A DNA stretch of 29,279 nucleotides from a virus (Duplodnaviria; Heunggongvirae; Uroviricota; Caudoviricetes): positions 1-29,279 of IMG/VR virus record IMGVR_UViG_2917398303_000005. The stretch is one strand, 5' to 3'. Below the pieces are notes generated by a model. That model did no database searches. It saw nothing but the letters and a program-made list of their open reading frames with translations, and was not told the origin of the DNA. Positions within the stretch are counted from its first letter, which is position 1, and every line of letters starts with the position of its first letter. The position numbers were made by a program, and so were the translations under genes. This document shows positions 1,247 to 10,906 of this stretch, in pieces.

Positions 1247-1585
1247 TTAATTACAAAGGGCTGTAGCAGCATCAATCAACGGTGAAATTGAAATTTTAAC
1301 ACCGTCAATCTCAGGGTCATCTTTCCATACGTCATCTAAATTAGATCCTTCCATCTTTCCTGATTTAACAGCATCTACTGCCATACCATTCAGTGGATAT
1401 CTATCATCAGTTTTGATGTCATACACAAAAGCATAAGCACGGTTAACACACGATACTTTTGCCTTTTCAAAGGATAGAGGCCACTGGTCGCCATATGCAG
1501 CCCCGTCTATCTCTTTGCTCTTCTCTGCAGCAGCGACACTAAATGAAAGAGTAAAAAGTAGAGTTAAAATAAGTTTACGCTTCAT
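1247..1585 (-). CDS. small secreted protein (signal peptide, two Cys), moron between int and cI
   Basis: 112-aa ORF with N-terminal MKRKLILTLLFTLSFSVAAA, a typical Sec signal peptide with an AxA-like cleavage site. The region is AT-rich by eye compared with the flanking int and cI. It weakly recalls small periplasmic DUF2511/YebY-like proteins from memory only. Confidence 0.6.
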   Translation of the reverse strand: MKRKLILTLLFTLSFSVAAAEKSKEIDGAAYGDQWPLSFEKAKVSCVNRAYAFVYDIKTDDRYPLNGMAVDAVKSGKMEGSNLDDVWKDDPEIDGVKISISPLIDAATALCN

Positions 1586-1611: not shown

Positions 1612-2016
1612 TTACTGAATGTTCTTTGTCGTGGCTAAGTGGGTATTAGAGCTAATAGTCACTTTGGATTGTTCCGGTTGCTCTTGACCAGCTTTATCGC
1701 AAGTAGCTCTCGGATTCTCAAGCGCATACCCCATGAAACTAAATTTATTGAGGATTTGAACCGCTTTAGTAGTTTTTAGGTATGCCGTATTTTCTTTATG
1801 TAGCCATACTGGATAGCAAACACCATATACAGCAGTATCATAAATTTCAGGTGTGACCGTTGGCGTATCCAGAACAACAGTAATCACACCCTTACTATCT
1901 TTTATCGATAAAGGCTGCATATCATTCAACGACTTTTTAAGCACAGACAAATTGGATGGCTGAGCATGTACAGCAAAAGAAGTGAGTAACACAAGAGCAA
2001 AAATTGAACGTTTCAT
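1612..2016 (-). CDS. small secreted protein (signal peptide), moron between int and cI
   Basis: 134-aa ORF with N-terminal MKRSIFALVLLTSFAVHAQP signal peptide. AT-rich, and tightly packed between cI (stop 2025) and the next ORF. Confidence 0.6.
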   Translation of the reverse strand: MKRSIFALVLLTSFAVHAQPSNLSVLKKSLNDMQPLSIKDSKGVITVVLDTPTVTPEIYDTAVYGVCYPVWLHKENTAYLKTTKAVQILNKFSFMGYALENPRATCDKAGQEQPEQSKVTISSNTHLATTKNIQ

Positions 2017-2024
2017 AAGTTCCC

Positions 2025-2867
2025 TTATATATGTTTTTCCAAAGTAAAAATTACAGCACCAAAAGGGGTAATGTCTGAAATATTACATTCAAACTCAGCA
2101 GATTTATTTGATAGCCTGACTTTTCCGCCGGGTAGTCGAACTACATCAAAAACATCAAAAGCGCCATCGATATCAATTAACCAGCGGCCATTACCTATAT
2201 TCGAAGCAGAACAGTCGACAAGCCAGGAAGCACCAGCACCGTCAACAAAAATCAACTCCTCAGAGTTAGACGGAATCATTGAAGGGTCAGGTTGCCAACT
2301 TCCTGCATCTTTGAGCTCACCAGACTCAAGGCGAGATTTTTTTATTGTCAGAACGTCGGGATAGCAGACCTCTTTGCTTTGTCTCATTTTCCCCTTGCCG
2401 GTAGCTAACCACTCCAGCGATACGCCAGTATCAAGGGCGCACGTAACAACAACATCACCGGGGAAGAAATCTCTCCTGACCCAAGTACTGATAGTACCAG
2501 AGGAAATATCAAGCAAATCACCAAGCTCTTTTTGCATTGTAAAACCATACGCATCAAGGATACGCCTCAATACAGGTTTTCCACCGCTCGTTAAAATCTC
2601 GTCATAAAGTAACTTCCCTTTCAACGCCGGTGCATCTTGCAAATTCAAACTGGAGATTGTTCCAGTCAGCAACCAATTTAGATCGGCACCAGTATCTAAT
2701 GAGCACTGAATTATCGCTTTTCCGGGAAAGCTATTCCGCTGAACCCACGTACTGACACTATTTGACGGGACGCCAAGCACCTCAGCCAAAGCCTTTTGCG
2801 TGCTGACACCATAGGCCGAACTTATCCGCTCAATCACATCTTGCGTATTCAAATCTTCATCATTCAT
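2025..2867 (-). CDS. cI: CI-type immunity repressor with two tandem phage-CI HTH domains and a possible S24-like C-terminal domain
   Basis: 280-aa ORF. Residues about 8-70 and 98-160 are clear paralogous repeats (…STWVQRNSFPG…DTGADLNWLLTG / …STWVRRDFFPG…DTGVSLEWLATG), resembling the phage CI repressor HTH domain. It is divergent from the rightward early operon and next to int. Confidence 0.8.
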   Translation of the reverse strand: MNDEDLNTQDVIERISSAYGVSTQKALAEVLGVPSNSVSTWVQRNSFPGKAIIQCSLDTGADLNWLLTGTISSLNLQDAPALKGKLLYDEILTSGGKPVLRRILDAYGFTMQKELGDLLDISSGTISTWVRRDFFPGDVVVTCALDTGVSLEWLATGKGKMRQSKEVCYPDVLTIKKSRLESGELKDAGSWQPDPSMIPSNSEELIFVDGAGASWLVDCSASNIGNGRWLIDIDGAFDVFDVVRLPGGKVRLSNKSAEFECNISDITPFGAVIFTLEKHI

Positions 2868-3352: not shown

Positions 3353-3384
3353 ATTTGATTATGCAAGTTAGAGGGAATTTAACC

Positions 3385-3894
3385 ATGTTTGATTTTCAGA
3401 TTTCTAAACATCCTCACTATGACGAAGCGTGCCGGGCTTTTGCGCAGCGTCACAACATGGCGAAGCTGGCCGAGCGTGCGGGTATGAACGTTCAAACGTT
3501 ACGTAACAAGCTCAACCCGGAACAGCCTCACCAATTCACACCGCCTGAATTGTGGCTGCTGACTGACCTGACCGAAGACTCAACCCTCGTTGATGGCTTT
3601 CTGGCGCAGATTCATTGTCTGCCATGCGTGCCGGTTAATGAGCTGGCTAAAGAGAAATTGCAGTCTTATGTGATGCGCGCAATGAGTGAACTCGGCGAAC
3701 TGGCGAGCGGTGCGGTATCAAATGAACGTATGACCTCTGACCGCAAACACAGCATGGTTGAGAGTGTTAATGCAGGCATCCGCATGTTGTCTCTGTCGGC
3801 GCTGGCGTTACAGGCGCGTCTACAGGCTAACCCGGCAATGTCGAGCGTGGTTGATACCATGACCGGCATCGGCGCAACATTTGGTTTGGTATGA
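3385..3894 (+). CDS. cII: phage 186-type CII transcriptional activator (CP76 family)
   Basis: 169 aa from ATG 3385, with RBS GAGGGAA 8 nt upstream. Begins MFDFQISKHPHYDEACRAFAQRHNMAKLAERAGMNVQTLRNKLNPEQPHQF, which matches my recollection of 186 CII almost residue for residue. Confidence 0.8.
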   Translation: MFDFQISKHPHYDEACRAFAQRHNMAKLAERAGMNVQTLRNKLNPEQPHQFTPPELWLLTDLTEDSTLVDGFLAQIHCLPCVPVNELAKEKLQSYVMRAMSELGELASGAVSNERMTSDRKHSMVESVNAGIRMLSLSALALQARLQANPAMSSVVDTMTGIGATFGLV

Positions 3895-4385: not shown

Positions 4386-4613
4386 ATGCGTAATACCGAA
4401 TCCCGTAGTTTTAATACTGATAGTGATACTCTGGCCGTGCTGCTGACAGATGCCAAAAAAGAAGAACGCAAAGACCGCGCACTCGCCGTTTCAATCCGTC
4501 TTGAGGCGCTGGCTATCCATATCACTAAAGAGGGCATGAACGGCACCGAAGCCGCTGAACTGCTGCGACGTGAAGCCAACCGCTACGAAAACGAATCACA
4601 GGAGCTGCACTAA
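4386..4613 (+). CDS. hypothetical early protein (DUF2732-like, by recollection)
   Basis: 75-aa ORF with RBS AGGAGAG at 4373-4379. Its stop overlaps the next start (ATGA at 4610-4613). Confidence 0.55.
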   Translation: MRNTESRSFNTDSDTLAVLLTDAKKEERKDRALAVSIRLEALAIHITKEGMNGTEAAELLRREANRYENESQELH

Positions 4614-4834
4614 TGGCCGACGCAATGGATTTAGCACAACTGCGCGAGCAGGAAGACCGCGAACGCCACATCAGCAACGCGCGCTGCCGTATTGCAGCGA
4701 CCTCTCCTTTCCTATGCGAAGAATGTGACGCACCAATCAAGGAAGCCCGCCGTGCGGCAATTCAGGGGGTGGCATTTTGCGTGACTTGTCAGCAAATCGC
4801 CGAGCTCAAATCAAAACACTACAGGGGCGTGTAA
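4613..4834 (+). CDS. TraR/DksA-family C4 zinc-finger protein
   Basis: 73 aa with CEECDAPIKEARRAAIQGVAFCVTCQQ, a CxxC-N17-CxxC finger typical of phage TraR/DksA-like proteins found before gene A in P2-like phages. Confidence 0.75.
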   Translation: MADAMDLAQLREQEDRERHISNARCRIAATSPFLCEECDAPIKEARRAAIQGVAFCVTCQQIAELKSKHYRGV

Positions 4835-5239
4835 ATGAGTTTTCGAATCGAAATAGGTGACAAATGGATTATTACTAGCGACCAGTATCAATTTATCCTT
4901 AATGAAAAGAAAGTCGCTCAATCTGGGAAAAAATCTGGCGAGGAATGGCTTGATGCCATCGGATATTACCCAAAAATTGAACAACTTATTTCAGGATTAA
5001 TTCACCGTCATATTCAGAATTCGACCATAACTTCACTTAAAGAGATGGTCGTAGAAATAGAAAAAATGGGCGTATTATTCGCCAATGCTATTGAGAAAAT
5101 GCTCGGTCAATATACTCCTGACTTAAAAATACTGAGTCGTAATCTTTCAGACCCATTCCGTAATCCGAGGCATCTACTAGACCCAGAGAGCGGAGAAATT
5201 CACACGCTGCGGCGTACTCTCCCAATCCATCACAGGTGA
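4835..5239 (+). CDS. hypothetical protein in AT-rich island
   Basis: 134-aa ORF translationally coupled to the previous gene (TAA ATG at 4832-4837, RBS AGGGG upstream). The N-terminal ~85 aa look protein-like; the C-terminal part overlaps a convergent ORF. Confidence 0.5.
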   Translation: MSFRIEIGDKWIITSDQYQFILNEKKVAQSGKKSGEEWLDAIGYYPKIEQLISGLIHRHIQNSTITSLKEMVVEIEKMGVLFANAIEKMLGQYTPDLKILSRNLSDPFRNPRHLLDPESGEIHTLRRTLPIHHR

Positions 5240-5390
5240 GAGCCCTGTAAAAAACATTCTCATTGCAGACAAGGATTTTATATGGAACTCCAGGAATGGA
5301 TTCCTGCTGATTCTCAAACCACGCAGACAGGGCCGAATCATATGGCGGCAGATTCAAACTGTCTTTCATCTTGAATAATTTATGTTGCAT
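5088..5390 (-). CDS. hypothetical protein, convergent and overlapping the previous ORF
   Basis: About 100 aa from ATG 5390 (or GTG 5393), with RBS AAGGTG about 6 nt upstream on the minus strand. The acidic, globular-looking sequence (…KILVCNENVFYRALTCDGLGEYAAACEFLRSLGLVD…) reads more like a real protein than its antisense partner. Confidence 0.4.
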   Translation of the reverse strand: MQHKLFKMKDSLNLPPYDSALSAWFENQQESIPGVPYKILVCNENVFYRALTCDGLGEYAAACEFLRSLGLVDASDYGMGLKDYDSVFLSQEYIDRAFSQ

Positions 5391-5436
5391 CACAGCACCT
5401 TTTTAACACTCAACTTTGTGGGAGGCTACACGACCA

Positions 5437-7710
5437 ATGTTATGGAATCAAAAAGAAAGTCGACAGATGATACATGACGGAGGGGCATTAGATATTACTT
5501 TTGCTTATCCGTGGAATGCTCCACGGTCGGCTATAGCCAGCCCATACCTTACTTACGAGCATCAGCATCGCCGCGACCGTATGTTCGCGGCTTTGCTGCA
5601 TGCGAAAAAGGTGCTTTCTCTCCAGCCCGACTGCGTGCGGTTAGATGTTTATCGCACTGCGGCAGTGCTGGAGCAAAATCAGGGCATTCAACGAGCCAAT
5701 GCCTTTTTGATCAGCTTCTGCAAAAAGGCATTGCCGCGTCTTGAATTGGTCGCAAAAAAATACGAATGCGCGGGCATCAACAGCAAGGTATCAACCTCTG
5801 TTTTTGGAAGTCATTTTGATACCCAGCTTATGCAATATCTGGCCTCACGCATGGTTAATATGGTCGCCCGATATAACCGCCTCCCGGATATGTCGCGCGC
5901 TGATGTTGACCTGTTGGCCGCCGATATTGCTAATTTCATTCGTGGTGAACTTGCCAACATTAATGACCACGGATTCGGCGAGCTTAAAACGCTGTACACC
6001 TGGTATAATCGTGCTGGCTTTATTTCCCTCCAGTTCAACGTTATCCCACCCCATTGGGATCGGGTTGCAAAAAAATATGTCGGCGCGGATGAAATCGCAC
6101 CGGCTATCGCCAAGATGTTTAACGATGGGTGGTGGCGTGGTCGTTTGCGCCGGGTTGCAGCTACATGGCGCGAACACCTGCAAATTGCAGTCGGCAACGT
6201 CAGCAAGAAAAAAAACACCTATGCGAGTAAAAACTGCGTGACTGACTGGCGTGAACAAAAGCGCCGAACTCGTGAATTTCTCAAAGGTCTGGATCTCGAA
6301 GACGAAGACGGCAACCGTATCAGCCTGATTGAAAAATATGATGGCTCAGTTGCTAACCCTGCGATTCGCCGCTGTGAGCTCATGACTCGCATCCGTGGGT
6401 TTGAAAACATCTGTAATGAGCTCGGTTATGTCGGTGAGTTTTACACTCTGACCGCGCCGTCGAAATATCACGCCACGACTAAAGCCGGTTACCGTAACAG
6501 CAAATGGAGCGGTGCCAGCCCGGCTGACACGCAAAACTATCTAACCGGTATCTGGGCGCGTATCCGTGCCAAACTGCATCGGGAAGATGTCCGTATTTTC
6601 GGTATTCGTGTCGCCGAGCCCCATCACGACGGTACTCCACACTGGCACATGCTGATGTTCATGCTGCCGGAAGATGTTGAATATGTTCGCTCCATCGTAC
6701 GTAAATACGCGTGGAAAGAAGACCGCCGCGAACTGAAAAGCGATAAGGCCAAAAAAGCACGTTTCCACGCCGAGTCCATTGACCCGGAGAAAGGCAGCGC
6801 AACCGGCTATGTTGCTAAATACATCTCAAAAAATATCGACGGTTATGCTCTCGATGGTGAAACCGATGATGAAAGTGGTGAACTGCTGAAAGAGACAGCC
6901 CCCGCCGTTTCAGCATGGGCTTCGCGCTGGCACATCCGTCAGTTTCAGTTTATCGGTGGTGCGCCGGTGACGGTTTACCGTGAGTTGCGTCGCCTCGCTG
7001 ATACCGAAACCGCGCACGGACTGAGCGTTGAGTTTGCCGCCGTCCATGATGCCGCCGACGCTGGTGACTGGGCTGGGTATGTTAATGCGCAGGGTGGACC
7101 GTTTGTCCGTCGCGATGATTTACAGGTGCGCACACTGTATGAACCGCGTACCGAGCTTAATCAGTACGGTGAGGAAACGGTATGTATTAAGGGGGTCTAC
7201 GATTCCTCCATAGGTGCAGGGAGCCCGATATTAACCCGACTCACTCAGTGGAAGATTGTTCCGAAGCATGCTGTTGATTTGGCCGTTGACCTTCAGGACG
7301 GCAAAGCCGTCCCTCGGAGTTCTGTCAATAACTGTACGGGAAGCGAAAACGATCCACCGGTACTGGATTTGACAAAGCCCCTGAGTCGACGCGAAAGACG
7401 AGAGCTAACCAACCGACTCAGGAAGCAAAAGCCAGCAGCATGGCGAAAATTCATACACGGAACGGAGGAGCAAAACGCAGCTATAGCGAAAACTATCGAA
7501 GAGATACATCTGACAACCGGCATTAATATCAGCCGGGGCGAAGCTCTGCACTTGATGGCCGGTGGTAAAAGTTGTTTTGATGGTAAATGGCTACGCGGAA
7601 CGGCCAAAGGAGAAATATTTTCCACAGCACCATCGCATGAGGCTAAAGCCAGGAAAATCCTTAATCGTGTTGCTGCGATAGCTGAAGCATCAAAACCAAT
7701 ATCAGACTAA
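5437..7710 (+). CDS. A: replication initiation protein A (rolling-circle HUH endonuclease, P2 gpA-like)
   Basis: About 757 aa from ATG 5437 with RBS GGAGG at 5421-5425. HUH motif TPHWHMLMF and active-site tyrosine motif GYVAKYISKNIDG. Size and position match P2 gpA. Confidence 0.9.
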   Translation: MLWNQKESRQMIHDGGALDITFAYPWNAPRSAIASPYLTYEHQHRRDRMFAALLHAKKVLSLQPDCVRLDVYRTAAVLEQNQGIQRANAFLISFCKKALPRLELVAKKYECAGINSKVSTSVFGSHFDTQLMQYLASRMVNMVARYNRLPDMSRADVDLLAADIANFIRGELANINDHGFGELKTLYTWYNRAGFISLQFNVIPPHWDRVAKKYVGADEIAPAIAKMFNDGWWRGRLRRVAATWREHLQIAVGNVSKKKNTYASKNCVTDWREQKRRTREFLKGLDLEDEDGNRISLIEKYDGSVANPAIRRCELMTRIRGFENICNELGYVGEFYTLTAPSKYHATTKAGYRNSKWSGASPADTQNYLTGIWARIRAKLHREDVRIFGIRVAEPHHDGTPHWHMLMFMLPEDVEYVRSIVRKYAWKEDRRELKSDKAKKARFHAESIDPEKGSATGYVAKYISKNIDGYALDGETDDESGELLKETAPAVSAWASRWHIRQFQFIGGAPVTVYRELRRLADTETAHGLSVEFAAVHDAADAGDWAGYVNAQGGPFVRRDDLQVRTLYEPRTELNQYGEETVCIKGVYDSSIGAGSPILTRLTQWKIVPKHAVDLAVDLQDGKAVPRSSVNNCTGSENDPPVLDLTKPLSRRERRELTNRLRKQKPAAWRKFIHGTEEQNAAIAKTIEEIHLTTGINISRGEALHLMAGGKSCFDGKWLRGTAKGEIFSTAPSHEAKARKILNRVAAIAEASKPISD

Positions 7711-8009: not shown

Positions 8010-8240
8010 ATGAGAATCAATATCACGTTGGATAAAGAACAAAAATTAGGGCAACAGATCATTGATGCTTTTCAGAATGAAATAACACATCGAGTACAAT
8101 GCGTTTTTCCTGCAATAAAAGTTAACGTCAAGAAAGGGTCAATGACTAGTGTAGAGGTTATCGGATTCGATAAAGAAGCAGACAAAGAAACATTAAGCGG
8201 CATATTACAAGAGATTTGGGAAGACGATAGCTGGCGTTAA
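8010..8240 (+). CDS. DinI-family protein (DinI-like / Tum C-terminal-like)
   Basis: 76 aa: MRINITLDKEQKLGQQIIDAFQNEITHRVQCVFP…ETLSGILQEIWEDDSWR. This parallels E. coli DinI (MRIEVTIAK…ISEILQETWESADDW) as I recall it. SOS-controlled through the upstream LexA box. Confidence 0.8.
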   Translation: MRINITLDKEQKLGQQIIDAFQNEITHRVQCVFPAIKVNVKKGSMTSVEVIGFDKEADKETLSGILQEIWEDDSWR

Positions 8241-9859: not shown

Positions 9860-10906
9860 TTATTCCGGGTTGTCTAGGGTGTACTCTTTGAATCTGATGA
9901 CCTCCATGCCGAGCCAGTCGTTTACCTCCCTGAACCTGTCCTGCAGGGGTGACAGCTCATTACGAACGAATACCTTTGCTACCTTCTCAACGTCACCGAG
10001 TGAACCGATATTCTCGGGCTTGCCGCCCATGAGCTGGAACGGTACGCGGTGCGCGTCCATCAGGTCGGCGGCACTGGCTTTCTTGATGTTGAAAAAGTCA
10101 TCCTTTGTGGCTACCTCGCTTAGTGGCACGATTTTGATGCCGTCCGGTTTTCCACCAGGAGCGTAGAAAAACAGGTTCTTAAAGTTGCCGAGCCCTTTTG
10201 AGTTGCGCATCGCCTCGCGCAGCGATTCGACGTCGGTCGCGCTCTGTGCCGGGTCGGTCACATACATGATGTAACCTGCATGCGCGCCGTTCTGGTAATA
10301 CTTGCGGCGGAACAGTGTCGCGGATTCATTCAGCCAGGCGGAATTAAGCGCGCTGAGATATTCGGGCAGACCGTAAATCTCCTGATTAATATCGGGCTCC
10401 AGCAGGTGAAACACGGTATTAGGGGCGAACTCGTGAGGCTGAGTGAAGTTTTCCACAAACCAGAAAATCGAATCGTCGACCCCGCGGCGGGTGTATTTGG
10501 CCGGTGAAGCCAGTAGCTTGATTAACCGGCCGGTGACGCTGTGGCGCTGCTCAAGAAAGGCGTTGCCGAATACCAGATAGTCGAGCGCAAAGCGGCTGAA
10601 ATCCTGACGTGACAGAAGCGGGTGTGGAATGTAGGTGCTCGCGAGCACGTTGCGTTTAACGTAAATCGGCGAGCTGTGATGTACGGCAGAGCGAAGGCTC
10701 TTTGCCAGTCCGGAAAAGCTGACCGGCGGCTCGTACCATTTGCCGTTACTGATGCACTCAACGTAATCCAAAATATCGCGCTTATCGAGTACCGGCACAG
10801 GCTCACCGAAGGTGAACGCTGTCGTTTTTGGTGGTGCGCTGGCGGTTAGTTGTTGTGGCTTGCTGGCCTTCTGCGCAGCGGCTTTACGGGATTTTTGTTT
10901 ACCCAT
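9860..10906 (-). CDS. Q: portal protein (P2 gpQ-like)
   Basis: 348 aa. MGKQKSRKAAAQKASKPQQLTASAPPKTTAFTFGEPVPVLDKRDILDYVEC… closely parallels P2 gpQ in sequence and size. Adjacent to cos and co-oriented with terminase. Confidence 0.9.
   Translation of the reverse strand: MGKQKSRKAAAQKASKPQQLTASAPPKTTAFTFGEPVPVLDKRDILDYVECISNGKWYEPPVSFSGLAKSLRSAVHHSSPIYVKRNVLASTYIPHPLLSRQDFSRFALDYLVFGNAFLEQRHSVTGRLIKLLASPAKYTRRGVDDSIFWFVENFTQPHEFAPNTVFHLLEPDINQEIYGLPEYLSALNSAWLNESATLFRRKYYQNGAHAGYIMYVTDPAQSATDVESLREAMRNSKGLGNFKNLFFYAPGGKPDGIKIVPLSEVATKDDFFNIKKASAADLMDAHRVPFQLMGGKPENIGSLGDVEKVAKVFVRNELSPLQDRFREVNDWLGMEVIRFKEYTLDNPE

What the first reader, a model, noticed from the sequence alone, without database searches (positions are those of the whole stretch)
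4835..5393. AT-rich island before gene A containing two convergent ORFs that overlap by about 150 bp
A 134-aa forward ORF, translationally coupled to the TraR-like gene, and a roughly 100-aa reverse ORF with its own good RBS overlap across 5088-5239. The segment is AT-rich by eye. Either only one is real (the reverse ORF's sequence looks more protein-like across the overlap than the forward ORF's tail), or this is a compact sense/antisense pair. Antisense-overlapping gene pairs in prophage early regions are an arrangement seen in toxin-antitoxin and exclusion modules.
Basis: seen in the sequence. Interest (0 to 1): 0.5.

Follow-up and report, generated by a model that had tools for sequence, protein, structure and literature searches.

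The report
Conserved tail-to-tail overlapping phage gene pair
In a 186/P2-like prophage, a small unknown gene sits backwards just before the replication gene, and the gene ahead of it reads about 50 codons into its far end on the other strand; related phages keep this overlap, so it is a rare case of one DNA stretch coding on both strands.

Summary
A forward ORF (4835-5239) and a reverse ORF (5088-5390/5393) converge and share 152 nt in a stretch of 40% G+C (window mean 53%).

Both are real genes:
- **Forward gene:** residues 1-88 are a DUF5405 / P2 orf83-type protein. Residues 89-134 are an extra tail read from the antisense strand of the reverse gene.
- **Reverse gene:** an acidic 100-aa protein (phrog_19905) with a confident predicted fold. 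It matches no known structure or defence family.

In this one genome the open forward frame could be chance (P about 0.25-0.4). Comparison with relatives says otherwise:
- In 18 of 19 related lineages, including clades only 31-39% identical and a Vibrio phage, a forward ORF runs 77-170 nt into the reverse gene, whatever gene supplies its N-terminus.
- Forward-frame stops in the overlap: 2 seen against 23 expected, both in the one lineage whose forward ORF is interrupted.
- Reverse codons 60-72 (5175-5213) show suppressed synonymous change (scan P = 1e-4).
- dNN/dNS for the tail is 0.62 against 0.97 in the control half.

This is a conserved antiparallel overlapping gene pair within the early/replication gene block. 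I found no support for a toxin-antitoxin or exclusion role. The function of both parts is unknown, and expression of neither strand was tested.

The parts
4613..4834 (+). TraR/DksA-like zinc-finger gene (context). Its TAA stop abuts the forward gene's ATG.
   Evidence: Pfam zf-dskA_traR E 9.5e-9 and phrog_54 E 5e-27. Sequence GTGTAAATG.
4835..5098 (+). Forward gene, family-defining part: DUF5405 / P2 orf83-like domain (aa 1-88).
   Evidence: Pfam PF17399 62.5 bits (cut-off 21.6), aa 5-88 against profile 1-86/88. phrog_154 E 9e-35. About 300 homologues, typically 89-93 aa, whose similarity ends near aa 88.
5099..5239 (+). Forward gene tail: 46 extra codons plus TGA (5237-5239), read from the antisense strand of the reverse gene. 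Basic (pI about 10) and predicted disordered.
   Evidence: Outside every family profile. pLDDT below 50 for aa 93-134. Only two protein clusters carry the 134-aa DUF5405+tail form. Frame kept open in relatives. pI.
5088..5390 (-). Reverse gene: 100-aa acidic (pI 4.5) soluble alpha/beta protein, phrog_19905 family, function unknown. The mechanical ORF start is GTG 5393, one codon upstream.
   Evidence: phrog_19905 E 2e-33. 14 homologues at 62-89% identity and distant ones at 31-42%. AF2 pLDDT 85, pTM 0.78. dNN/dSN 0.17-0.27. No fold or family match.
5088..5239 (.). The 152-nt antiparallel (3'-to-3') overlap. Register: forward codon position 1 faces reverse position 1, forward 2 faces reverse 3, forward 3 faces reverse 2.
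   Evidence: Coordinates; register derived from those coordinates. Forward-frame stops in the homologous stretch: 2 seen against 23.1 expected over 16 sequences.
5175..5213 (.). Patch of suppressed synonymous variation in the reverse gene (codons 60-72), which is the forward tail motif LLDPE(S/T)GEIHTLRR (aa 114-127).
   Evidence: V60 GTT, F65 TTT, S68 TCT, L69 CTG and V72 GTA are nearly invariant. Scan permutation P = 1e-4. The only outliers at F65, S68 and V72 are in L028, the lineage with a broken forward ORF. No conserved RNA structure.
5237..5239 (+). Forward stop codon, created by reverse codons 51|52 ([L/I]-T of the YRA[LI]TC motif). All lineages of the window's own clade with an open forward frame keep it at the same position.
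   Evidence: Codon 51 is CTC/CTT/ATC/ATT in every lineage of this clade with an open forward frame, and CTG (no stop) only in L028.
5396..5401 (-). Shine-Dalgarno-like AAGGTG of the reverse gene, 5 nt before ATG 5390.
   Evidence: Read from the sequence. Conserved as AAAAGGT[AG]CTGTGATG in the closest relatives.
5423..5451 (-). Candidate weak promoter of the reverse gene (TTGATT - 17 nt - TAGCCT), lying across gene A's ribosome-binding site and ATG on the other strand. Low confidence.
   Evidence: Found by eye in the alignment. It did not reach the threshold of the promoter scan. Conservation here may simply reflect gene A's start region.
5437..7710 (+). Replication gene A (context). Probable start is ATG 5437 with GGGAGG at 5420-5425; the mechanical ORF starts at TTG 5416.
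   Evidence: ORF list. Annotated as replication endonuclease in related phages. Phage_GPA Pfam hits on homologues in related loci.

Best explanation
**What it is.** The segment holds a conserved tail-to-tail overlapping gene pair between the early genes and replication gene A of a 186/P2-like prophage.

**Reverse gene (5088-5390).** It is a genuine but uncharacterised accessory gene for an acidic 100-aa alpha/beta protein. It sits directly upstream of gene A and faces against the neighbouring early genes.

**Forward gene.** The gene just upstream is here a DUF5405/orf83-type gene. It has no stop of its own, so ribosomes read on for 46 codons through the antisense strand of the reverse gene's 3' half. 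They stop at a TGA that the reverse protein's conserved [L/I]-T dipeptide creates.

**Origin of the tail.** The tail is an overprinted, basic, probably disordered extension. The reverse frame is the older, strongly constrained frame. The forward frame is kept open by selection (stop avoidance, including rare ATA Ile codons). In the window's own clade a short motif (LLDPE[ST]GEIH) also constrains the reverse gene's synonymous sites.

**How it probably works (inferred, not shown).** Gene A is taken here to be transcribed with the early genes, as in 186 (my own knowledge, not tested). On that assumption:
- The two genes are transcribed convergently, so their expression should oppose each other. 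Early lytic transcription runs over and silences the reverse gene. The reverse transcript is antisense to the early mRNA just ahead of gene A.
- Keeping the first 150 nt of that antisense stretch translated may protect the early mRNA from polarity or antisense-triggered decay on its way to gene A, or may supply a needed C-terminal tail.
For: **Shown: both genes are real.**
- Forward aa 1-88 matches DUF5405 at 62.5 bits, and no in-frame stop occurs before 5237.
- The reverse gene matches phrog_19905 at E 2e-33, has homologues down to 31-35% identity, and gives an AF2 model with pLDDT 85.

**Shown: the arrangement is conserved.**
- The layout is gene A, then the reverse gene on the opposite strand, then a forward ORF overlapping its 3' end.
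- It is seen in 18 of 19 lineages examined: Escherichia, Siccibacter, Serratia and Erwinia prophages and metagenomic contigs (146-170 nt overlap), a distant clade (116-167 nt) and a Vibrio phage (77 nt).

**Shown: the same tail frame follows different N-terminal parts.**
- These are DUF5405, full Dam methylase, Dam remnants, a 218-aa protein and a family of 61-87-aa small ORFs.
- All the small ORFs have an SD plus ATG.
- Their non-overlapping part shows pN 0.27-0.37 against pS 0.38-0.84.

**Shown: forward-frame stops are depleted in the overlap.**
- Overlap: 2 seen against 23.1 expected. Control half of the same gene: 31 seen against 42.7 expected.
- The conditional binomial test gives P = 1e-4, or 1.3e-3 with one sequence per lineage.
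- At Ile-Asn junctions the rare ATA codon is used, and it is the only Ile codon that avoids a forward stop.

**Shown: selection on the tail.**
- A synonymous-constraint patch at reverse codons 60-72 has scan P = 1e-4.
- dNN/dNS is 0.62 in the overlap against 0.97 in the control half.
- L028 is a natural control. Another gene has replaced its upstream ORF, the tail frame carries two stops, and L028 alone has changed the otherwise fixed synonymous sites (F65, S68, V72, L51).
Against: - In this genome alone the open frame is not unusual (P 0.25-0.41).
- The dNN/dNS confidence interval reaches 1.08.
- Outside the 13-codon patch, the overlap shows normal synonymous variation.
- The tail motif is absent from the distant clade, and tail length varies from 77 to 170 nt. 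Any peptide-level function is therefore clade-specific or loosely specified.
- The tail is predicted disordered, although from a shallow alignment.
- The lineages are related, so the P-values overstate independence.
- L028 is a single counter-lineage.
- No promoter or terminator for the reverse gene passed the scans.
- No expression data exist for either strand.
- The proposed regulatory logic (convergent interference, anti-polarity) and the assumption that gene A shares the early transcript are inference only.
Confidence: 0.6

Rival explanations
1. Only the reverse gene matters in the overlap. When the reverse gene lodged next to gene A, the upstream gene lost its own stop. It now reads through until the first unavoidable stop, and the tail is translated junk with no selected role.
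For: - Typical DUF5405 proteins end at 89-93 aa.
- The tail is disordered and hydrophilic.
- The open frame has P 0.25-0.41 in this genome.
- Most overlap codons show ordinary synonymous variation.
- The tail sequence is not conserved in the distant clade, and its length varies.
- One lineage (L028) does without it.
Against: - Stop depletion in the overlap (2 against 23 expected) contrasts with a normal rate in the control half.
- Rare ATA codons are used exactly where any other Ile codon would make a stop.
- At least 4-5 different upstream genes are joined in frame to the tail.
- There is a synonymous-constraint patch.
- That constraint relaxes only in the lineage where the frame is broken.
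Confidence: 0.2
2. The conserved nucleotides in the overlap (5175-5213) are a cis-acting DNA or RNA element, such as a protein-binding site, a processing site or an antisense-pairing core. The open forward frame is a side effect of that constraint.
For: - The constraint is sharply local, about 39 nt.
- The peptide motif is absent from the distant clade.
- Convergent transcripts would form double-stranded RNA here (inference).
Against: - There is no conserved RNA secondary structure and no covariation, and no Rfam match or repeat.
- The element would not explain stop avoidance across the other 37 overlap codons.
- It would also not explain the in-frame joins to many N-termini.
- The constraint is lost together with the forward ORF in L028.
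Confidence: 0.1
3. The pair is a toxin-antitoxin or superinfection-exclusion module. One product or its antisense RNA would neutralise the other.
For: - The layout is convergent and antisense, sits in a prophage, and is AT-rich like acquired cargo.
- An acidic folded protein faces a basic tail, which would allow a neutralising interaction. This is speculation.
- The reverse gene is rare and patchily distributed.
Against: - No hit in PADLOC, Pfam, NCBIfam or PDB, and no fold match.
- No hydrophobic small toxin is present.
- The forward partner's main domain is interchangeable.
- The locus is not in the known P2 defence hotspot.
- The reverse gene keeps a fixed position next to gene A across deep divergence, which looks like a replication-module accessory rather than mobile defence cargo.
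Confidence: 0.07
4. The reverse ORF is a non-coding shadow of the forward gene.
For: Some gene callers omit it, for example in L031.
Against: - Half of it lies outside any forward ORF.
- The protein family is conserved to 31-35% identity, including in a Vibrio phage.
- dNN/dSN is 0.17-0.27.
- The predicted fold is confident.
- The SD and ATG are conserved.
Confidence: 0.01

Closest known systems
Overprinted overlapping genes of viruses and the few antiparallel overlapping gene pairs described in bacteria (e.g. laoB antisense to a CadC-like regulator in E. coli O157:H7, PMC5810103; overview PMC6195259; sceptical survey bioRxiv 10.1101/724807)
   Same: Both strands of one DNA stretch carry protein-coding frames. 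One frame is old, structured and strongly constrained (the reverse gene). The other is young-looking, disordered and weakly constrained (the forward tail). Annotation pipelines usually call only one of the two.
   Different: Only the last 46-55 codons of each gene overlap, tail to tail, rather than one gene lying inside another. The overlap persists across deeply diverged phages. The overprinted piece behaves as a portable C-terminal extension joined to several unrelated N-terminal domains. Support here is comparative only, with no expression data.
P2 orf83 / DUF5405 (PF17399) genes upstream of gene A in P2/186-like phages
   Same: Forward aa 1-88 belong to this family. The gene keeps the usual place after the TraR/DksA-like gene and before gene A.
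   Different: Ordinary members are 89-93 aa and end next to or overlapping gene A's start in the two phages read here (Midge, EtG). This one carries a 46-aa antisense-encoded tail, and a reverse gene separates it from gene A.
Lambda oop RNA, antisense to the 3' end of cII, and the face-to-face pR/pL promoters of phage 186 (transcriptional interference). Recalled from my own knowledge, not tested here.
   Same: Convergent transcription overlaps the 3' end of an early gene in a temperate phage, so expression of the two sides could oppose each other.
   Different: The antisense partner here is a conserved 100-aa protein gene, not a short non-coding RNA or a promoter pair. No transcript, promoter or RNase III dependence has been shown.
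P2 accessory/exclusion genes (old, tin) and the defence hotspot of P2-like prophages between gpA and gpQ (PMC9122126)
   Same: A rare, patchily distributed, AT-rich accessory gene in a P2-like prophage. If it has its own promoter, it could be expressed independently of the lytic operons.
   Different: It lies upstream of gene A, within the block of early genes, not in the gpA-gpQ hotspot. It matches no PADLOC model. Its position is fixed relative to gene A in all lineages seen.

Membership tests
DUF5405 (PF17399), P2 orf83-like | Match to the Pfam profile above the gathering score | tested here: met
   62.5 bits against a cut-off of 21.6; aa 5-88 cover profile 1-86/88.
DUF5405 (PF17399), P2 orf83-like | Single-domain protein of about 90 aa that ends with the domain | tested here: not met
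   Homologues are 89-93 aa. This one is 134 aa with a 46-aa tail outside the profile, and only two clusters share that form.
phrog_19905 (phage protein family, unknown function) | Full-length match to the family profile | tested here: met
   E 2e-33; aa 8-96 against profile 4-94/94.
Antiparallel overlapping (dual-coding) gene pair | Both reading frames intact across the overlap in diverged relatives, beyond chance | tested here: met
   Forward frame open in 18 of 19 lineages. Stops: 2 seen against 23.1 expected, with 31 against 42.7 in the control half. P = 1e-4 to 1.3e-3.
Antiparallel overlapping (dual-coding) gene pair | Purifying selection on both frames within the overlap | tested here: inconclusive
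   Reverse frame is clear (dNN/dSN 0.17). Forward frame has dNN/dNS 0.62 with a 95% CI of 0.37-1.08, against 0.97 in the control. A local synonymous-constraint patch is significant.
Antiparallel overlapping (dual-coding) gene pair | Both products expressed (transcript and protein) | not testable with these tools
   No RNA-seq, Ribo-seq or proteomic data are available. SD plus start codons are present for both genes.
Type II toxin-antitoxin module | Two adjacent co-directional small genes in one operon, with toxin and antitoxin from known families | tested here: not met
   The genes are convergent. No TA or defence family hit in Pfam, PADLOC or NCBIfam. No fold match.
Type I toxin-antitoxin module | Small (under 60 aa) hydrophobic membrane toxin controlled by an overlapping antisense RNA | tested here: not met
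   The products are 100 and 134 aa and hydrophilic, with maximum 19-residue Kyte-Doolittle means of 0.74 and 0.92. The existence of an antisense RNA could not be tested.
P2-like prophage defence hotspot cargo (gpA-gpQ locus) | Located between replication gene A and the portal gene Q | tested here: not met
   The reverse gene is upstream of gene A. The hotspot is defined as gpA-gpQ in PMC9122126.
P2 Ogr/186 B-activated late gene | TGT-N12-ACA dyad upstream of the promoter | tested here: not met
   Only two matches in the window, at 9937 and 10245 near the portal gene; none near 5390-5520.

The most novel reading that the evidence does not exclude
The overlap may be a working device rather than a tolerated accident. 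Under this reading the reverse protein and the antisense-encoded basic tail form a previously undescribed control module for the replication initiator A. Two routes are possible. In one, the acidic reverse protein binds the basic tail of whatever protein carries it. In the other, convergent transcription together with obligatory translation of the first 150 nt sets how much early mRNA reaches gene A. Either way, the reverse gene would act as a lysogeny-side brake or safety catch on phage replication. The portable tail would then be a rare documented case of an overprinted antisense peptide kept under selection across genera.
Probability: 0.15. Interest if true: 0.75.

Novelty: new variant of a known kind. 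Interest (0 to 1): 0.52.

Why it matters
- **Rare kind of overlap.** Long antiparallel overlaps between protein-coding genes are rare and disputed in prokaryotes and their phages. Most proposed cases rest on one genome. This pair is supported by comparison across many diverged phages, it includes a natural loss-of-frame control, and one reverse-silent point mutation (C5148A) can test it.
- **Uncharacterised protein beside the replication initiator.** The work flags a small protein family with a confident fold but no structural relative. It always sits immediately upstream of gene A in a subset of P2/186-like phages.
- **Annotation gap.** Standard gene callers usually report only one member of the pair. 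The 61-87-aa forward ORFs are missing from the gene calls of several of the related loci read here.

Tried and rejected
**Searches that found nothing**
- E. coli complete genomes, near-identity search: no match.
- Phage GenBank collection, tblastn with the reverse protein: only one Vibrio phage. With distant family members: the same phage or nothing.
- PDB sequence profile search: E 0.63 only.
- PADLOC and NCBIfam: no hit for either protein.
- The search for related loci with the distant-homologue alignment failed for lack of a conserved block. P0139 gave no locus.

**Ideas rejected**
- Profile hits to three 2,200-2,600-aa proteins fall in MBG/Ig-type repeat proteins. I treated them as non-informative.
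- Conserved RNA structure in the constrained patch: none, at -1.0 kcal/mol with no covariation. No Rfam family and no meaningful repeats.
- Long-range pairing of gene A's ribosome-binding site with the translated tail region, which would give translational coupling at a distance. The predicted partners differ from lineage to lineage, so I dropped it.
- Promoter and terminator scan: nothing convincing for the reverse gene. No Ogr-type late-promoter dyad nearby.

**Left unresolved**
- Homology of the small ORFs' N-terminal helix to the C-terminal half of DUF5405 is only suggestive. The hhalign hit is driven by the shared tail, and the small ORFs have no Pfam hit.
Full report
**Setting**

The window is the left arm of a 186/P2-like (Peduoviridae) prophage. 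The genes in order are:
- integrase (173-1222, -)
- a DUF2511 gene and an ORF with no family match
- a CI-type repressor (2025-2867, -)
- an Apl/Cox-position ORF
- CII/CP76 (3355-3894)
- small early ORFs, DUF2732 (4386-4613) and a TraR/DksA-like zinc finger (4613-4834)
- the segment in question
- replication gene A (about 5437-7710)
- a DinI-like gene
- the portal gene

Related phages (Escherichia phage Midge, Klebsiella RCIP0057, Erwinia EtG) share the flanking genes at 81-87% nucleotide identity. They carry different genes in the slot between the TraR-like gene and gene A. The nearest relative found is a prophage in Escherichia sp. E1V33, at 98-99% protein identity across this segment. No complete E. 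coli genome has the segment.

**Checking the observation**

- **ORFs.** The two ORFs are at 4835-5239 (+, 134 aa) and 5088-5393 (-, 101 aa) and share 152 nt.
- **Reverse start.** Homologues begin at MQHK, so the reverse gene most likely starts at ATG 5390 and is 100 aa.
- **Coupling.** The forward ATG abuts the TraR-like TAA. The reverse gene has AAGGTG 5 nt upstream of its ATG, conserved in its closest relatives.
- **AT-richness.** The segment is 40.3% G+C against 53.0% for the window, in the lowest 3% of windows of that size.
- **Chance.** Taken alone, the overlap is not remarkable. Given the reverse protein's sequence and local codon usage, the forward frame would stay open over those 50 codons with probability 0.25-0.41.

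**Are both genes real?**

*Forward ORF.*
- Residues 5-88 match Pfam DUF5405 at 62.5 bits (cut-off 21.6). They also match phrog_154 and phrog_33705.
- About 300 homologues were found. Nearly all are 89-93 aa and lose similarity to the window protein at about residue 88.
- Residues 89-134 are therefore an extension, and no in-frame stop occurs before 5237. If the DUF5405 gene is translated, the tail is translated too.

*Reverse ORF.*
- It matches phrog_19905 over its whole length at E 2e-33.
- It has 14 homologues at 62-89% identity. An exhaustive profile search of 1.84 billion cluster representatives found only 20 family representatives, mostly 84-117-aa single-domain proteins at 31-42% identity.
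- Its AF2 model is confident (pLDDT 85, pTM 0.78), with an alpha/beta arrangement of five strands and three main helices.
- The protein is acidic (pI 4.5) and soluble.
- Within the reverse gene, changes that alter its protein are five-fold rarer than silent ones (dNN/dSN 0.17-0.27).

So the reverse ORF is not a shadow ORF.

**The arrangement in relatives**

I collected the reverse gene with its flanks from species-representative genomes, IMG/VR, metagenomes and assembled read sets. This gave 19 distinct lineages.
- **Reverse gene position.** Wherever the contig reaches that far, the reverse gene lies immediately upstream of gene A on the opposite strand.
- **Forward overlap.** In 18 of the 19 lineages a forward ORF runs into its 3' end. 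The overlap is 146-170 nt in the window's own clade, 116-167 nt in a clade whose reverse protein is only 31-39% identical (L032-L035), and 77 nt in Vibrio phage 10N.286.45.B12_PE001, where GenBank annotates both overlapping genes.
- **What feeds the tail frame differs between lineages.** It is DUF5405 in the window and L031, and a full-length Dam methylase in L017-L019 and L008. It is N-terminal Dam remnants in L010, L011 and P0157-P0165, and a 218-aa protein in L007. It is other short ORFs in L006, L012, P0158 and P0162. Most often it is a family of 75-87-aa ORFs with a conserved N-terminal helix (...LAxAVIKHSxKTSPxEAIxELKxL...).
- **The small ORFs look translated.** All have an SD plus ATG. 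Their non-overlapping part shows protein-level conservation, with pN 0.27-0.37 against pS 0.38-0.84 for lineages in register.
- **Public gene calls.** They usually report only one gene of the pair and occasionally both.

**Is the open forward frame more than chance?**

In this register a forward stop arises when a reverse codon ending in TT, CT or TC is followed by a codon starting with A. I computed the expected number of such stops from each reverse protein sequence and the family's codon usage. The half of the gene that no forward ORF covers served as control.
- **Control half:** 31 stops seen against 42.7 expected.
- **Overlapped half:** 2 seen against 23.1 expected, both in a single lineage.
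- **Test:** a conditional binomial test gives P = 1e-4 for 16 sequences, and 1.3e-3 with one sequence per lineage.
- **Per-lineage probabilities** of an open frame range from 0.03 to 0.59.
- **Rare codons:** the lineages that were read whose reverse protein has Ile-Asn at codons 94-95 and whose forward frame is open (L012, L015) use the rare ATA there. ATA is the only Ile codon that avoids a forward stop. L028, the one Ile-Asn lineage with a closed frame, has a forward stop at that junction.
- **Conserved stop:** the forward stop itself is conserved. Reverse codon 51 is CTC, CTT, ATC or ATT in every lineage of the window's own clade with an open forward frame.
- **Later additions:** the three lineages fetched later (L037-L039) also have open frames.

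**Is the tail peptide under selection?**

An OLGenie-style count compared changes that alter both proteins with changes that alter only the reverse protein.
- dNN/dNS is 0.62 in the overlap (bootstrap 95% CI 0.37-1.08). It is 0.97 (0.73-1.35) in the control half.
- The signal is concentrated. Reverse codons 60-72 (window 5175-5213, forward motif LLDPE[ST]GEIHTLRR) keep near-invariant synonymous codons: V GTT, F TTT, L CTC, S TCT, L CTG, V GTA. A scan-permutation test gives P = 1e-4.
- The rest of the overlap varies freely at the reverse gene's silent sites.
- No conserved RNA structure explains the patch.

The exception, L028, is informative. An unrelated hydrophobic 80-aa ORF has replaced its upstream gene and ends before the reverse gene. 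The tail frame there has two stops. L028 alone departs from the fixed codons at F65, S68, V72 and L51.

Several points cut against a sequence-specific tail function:
- the motif is not shared by the distant clade
- tail length varies between clades
- the AF2 model of the forward protein is poor, with the tail below pLDDT 50

**Interpretation**

*Shown.*
- Both genes are real, and they overlap tail to tail.
- The overlap is old, and the forward frame across it is maintained by selection.
- The reverse frame is the older, structured and strongly constrained one. The forward tail looks like an overprinted, basic, disordered C-terminal extension that recombination has attached to several different upstream genes.

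*Inferred.*
- I take gene A to be part of the early transcript, as in 186 (my own knowledge, not tested here). On that assumption, early transcription towards A must cross the reverse gene in antisense.
- The reverse gene's start region lies back to back with gene A's ribosome-binding site. A weak candidate promoter, TTGATT-17-TAGCCT at 5423-5451 (-), was seen only by eye.
- The two genes are then expected to be expressed antagonistically. The selected feature may be continued translation of the early mRNA into the antisense stretch, which would protect against polarity or antisense-triggered decay. Alternatively, a loosely specified C-terminal tail may be what is selected.
- I could not test expression, so these mechanistic steps remain hypotheses.

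**What it is not**
- There is no evidence for a toxin-antitoxin or exclusion system: no family or fold match, no hydrophobic toxin, a convergent rather than operonic layout, and an interchangeable forward partner.
- It lies outside the described P2 defence hotspot between gpA and gpQ.
- No Ogr-type late-promoter dyad is nearby.
- The idea that tail translation unmasks gene A's ribosome-binding site through long-range pairing failed, because the predicted partners differ among lineages.

**Limits**
- The lineages are related, so the P-values overstate independence.
- The alignments are short (about 100 codons, 12-19 sequences).
- L028 is a single natural control.
- No transcript or protein data exist.
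- The function of the reverse protein is unknown.

**Verdict**

The toxin-antitoxin or exclusion reading is not. The finding is a conserved antiparallel overlapping gene pair next to the replication initiator of a subset of P2/186-like phages. It is moderately interesting and directly testable with one reverse-silent point mutation (C5148A).

Noticed in passing
window 2025-2867 (-): The CI-type repressor ORF is 280 aa. It has two Phage_CI_repr helix-turn-helix stretches plus weak Xre/YdaS-like N-terminal matches. The CI of related loci (L031, L034) is about 192 aa. This may be an N-terminal HTH duplication or an over-long ORF call.
   Followed up: no
window 1247-1585 (-) and 1612-2016 (-): A DUF2511 gene and a 134-aa ORF with no Pfam match sit between the integrase and the repressor. 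They look like cargo at the int-cI junction.
   Followed up: no
L006, L010, L011, L017 (region between the reverse gene and gene A): In these relatives gene A starts about 140 nt from the reverse gene's start. The stretch homologous to the window's A N-terminus (EATRPMLWNQKES) is a separate 43-53-aa ORF overlapping A's start. The start of gene A is therefore remodelled in this clade.
   Followed up: partly
L025-L027, L030, L031, L036, L004: Public gene calls report only one gene of the overlapping pair in most loci. L025-L027 and L030 lack the 79-80-aa forward ORF, and L031 lacks the reverse gene. L036 and GenBank PQ189330 call both.
   Followed up: yes
L017 and L018 (POVV01000086.1): One metagenomic contig carries two copies of the module about 30 kb apart, with identical reverse proteins. 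This suggests two related or tandem prophages.
   Followed up: no
L008, L016, L024 (Candidatus Erwinia dacicola and matching contigs): The reverse gene is 5'-truncated to 66 aa with a foreign N-terminus, while the Dam-tail fusion ORF across its 3' half is intact. This may be a decaying prophage copy.
   Followed up: no
window 9937-9954 and 10245-10262 (+): The only two TGT-N12-ACA dyads in the window (P2 Ogr/186 B-type late-promoter signature) lie by the portal gene, where late promoters are expected.
   Followed up: no
window 8010-8240 (+): A DinI-like 76-aa gene lies downstream of gene A (Pfam DinI E 2e-18). This is the region where 186-type phages carry SOS-linked induction functions (the 186 comparison is from my own knowledge).
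   Followed up: no
P0140, P0144, P0148 (2,200-2,600-aa proteins): The reverse-protein profile weakly matches repeated segments of giant MBG/Ig-repeat surface proteins (E 1.8e-9 to 4e-4). This is probably a generic small beta-rich module resemblance and not informative about function.
   Followed up: partly
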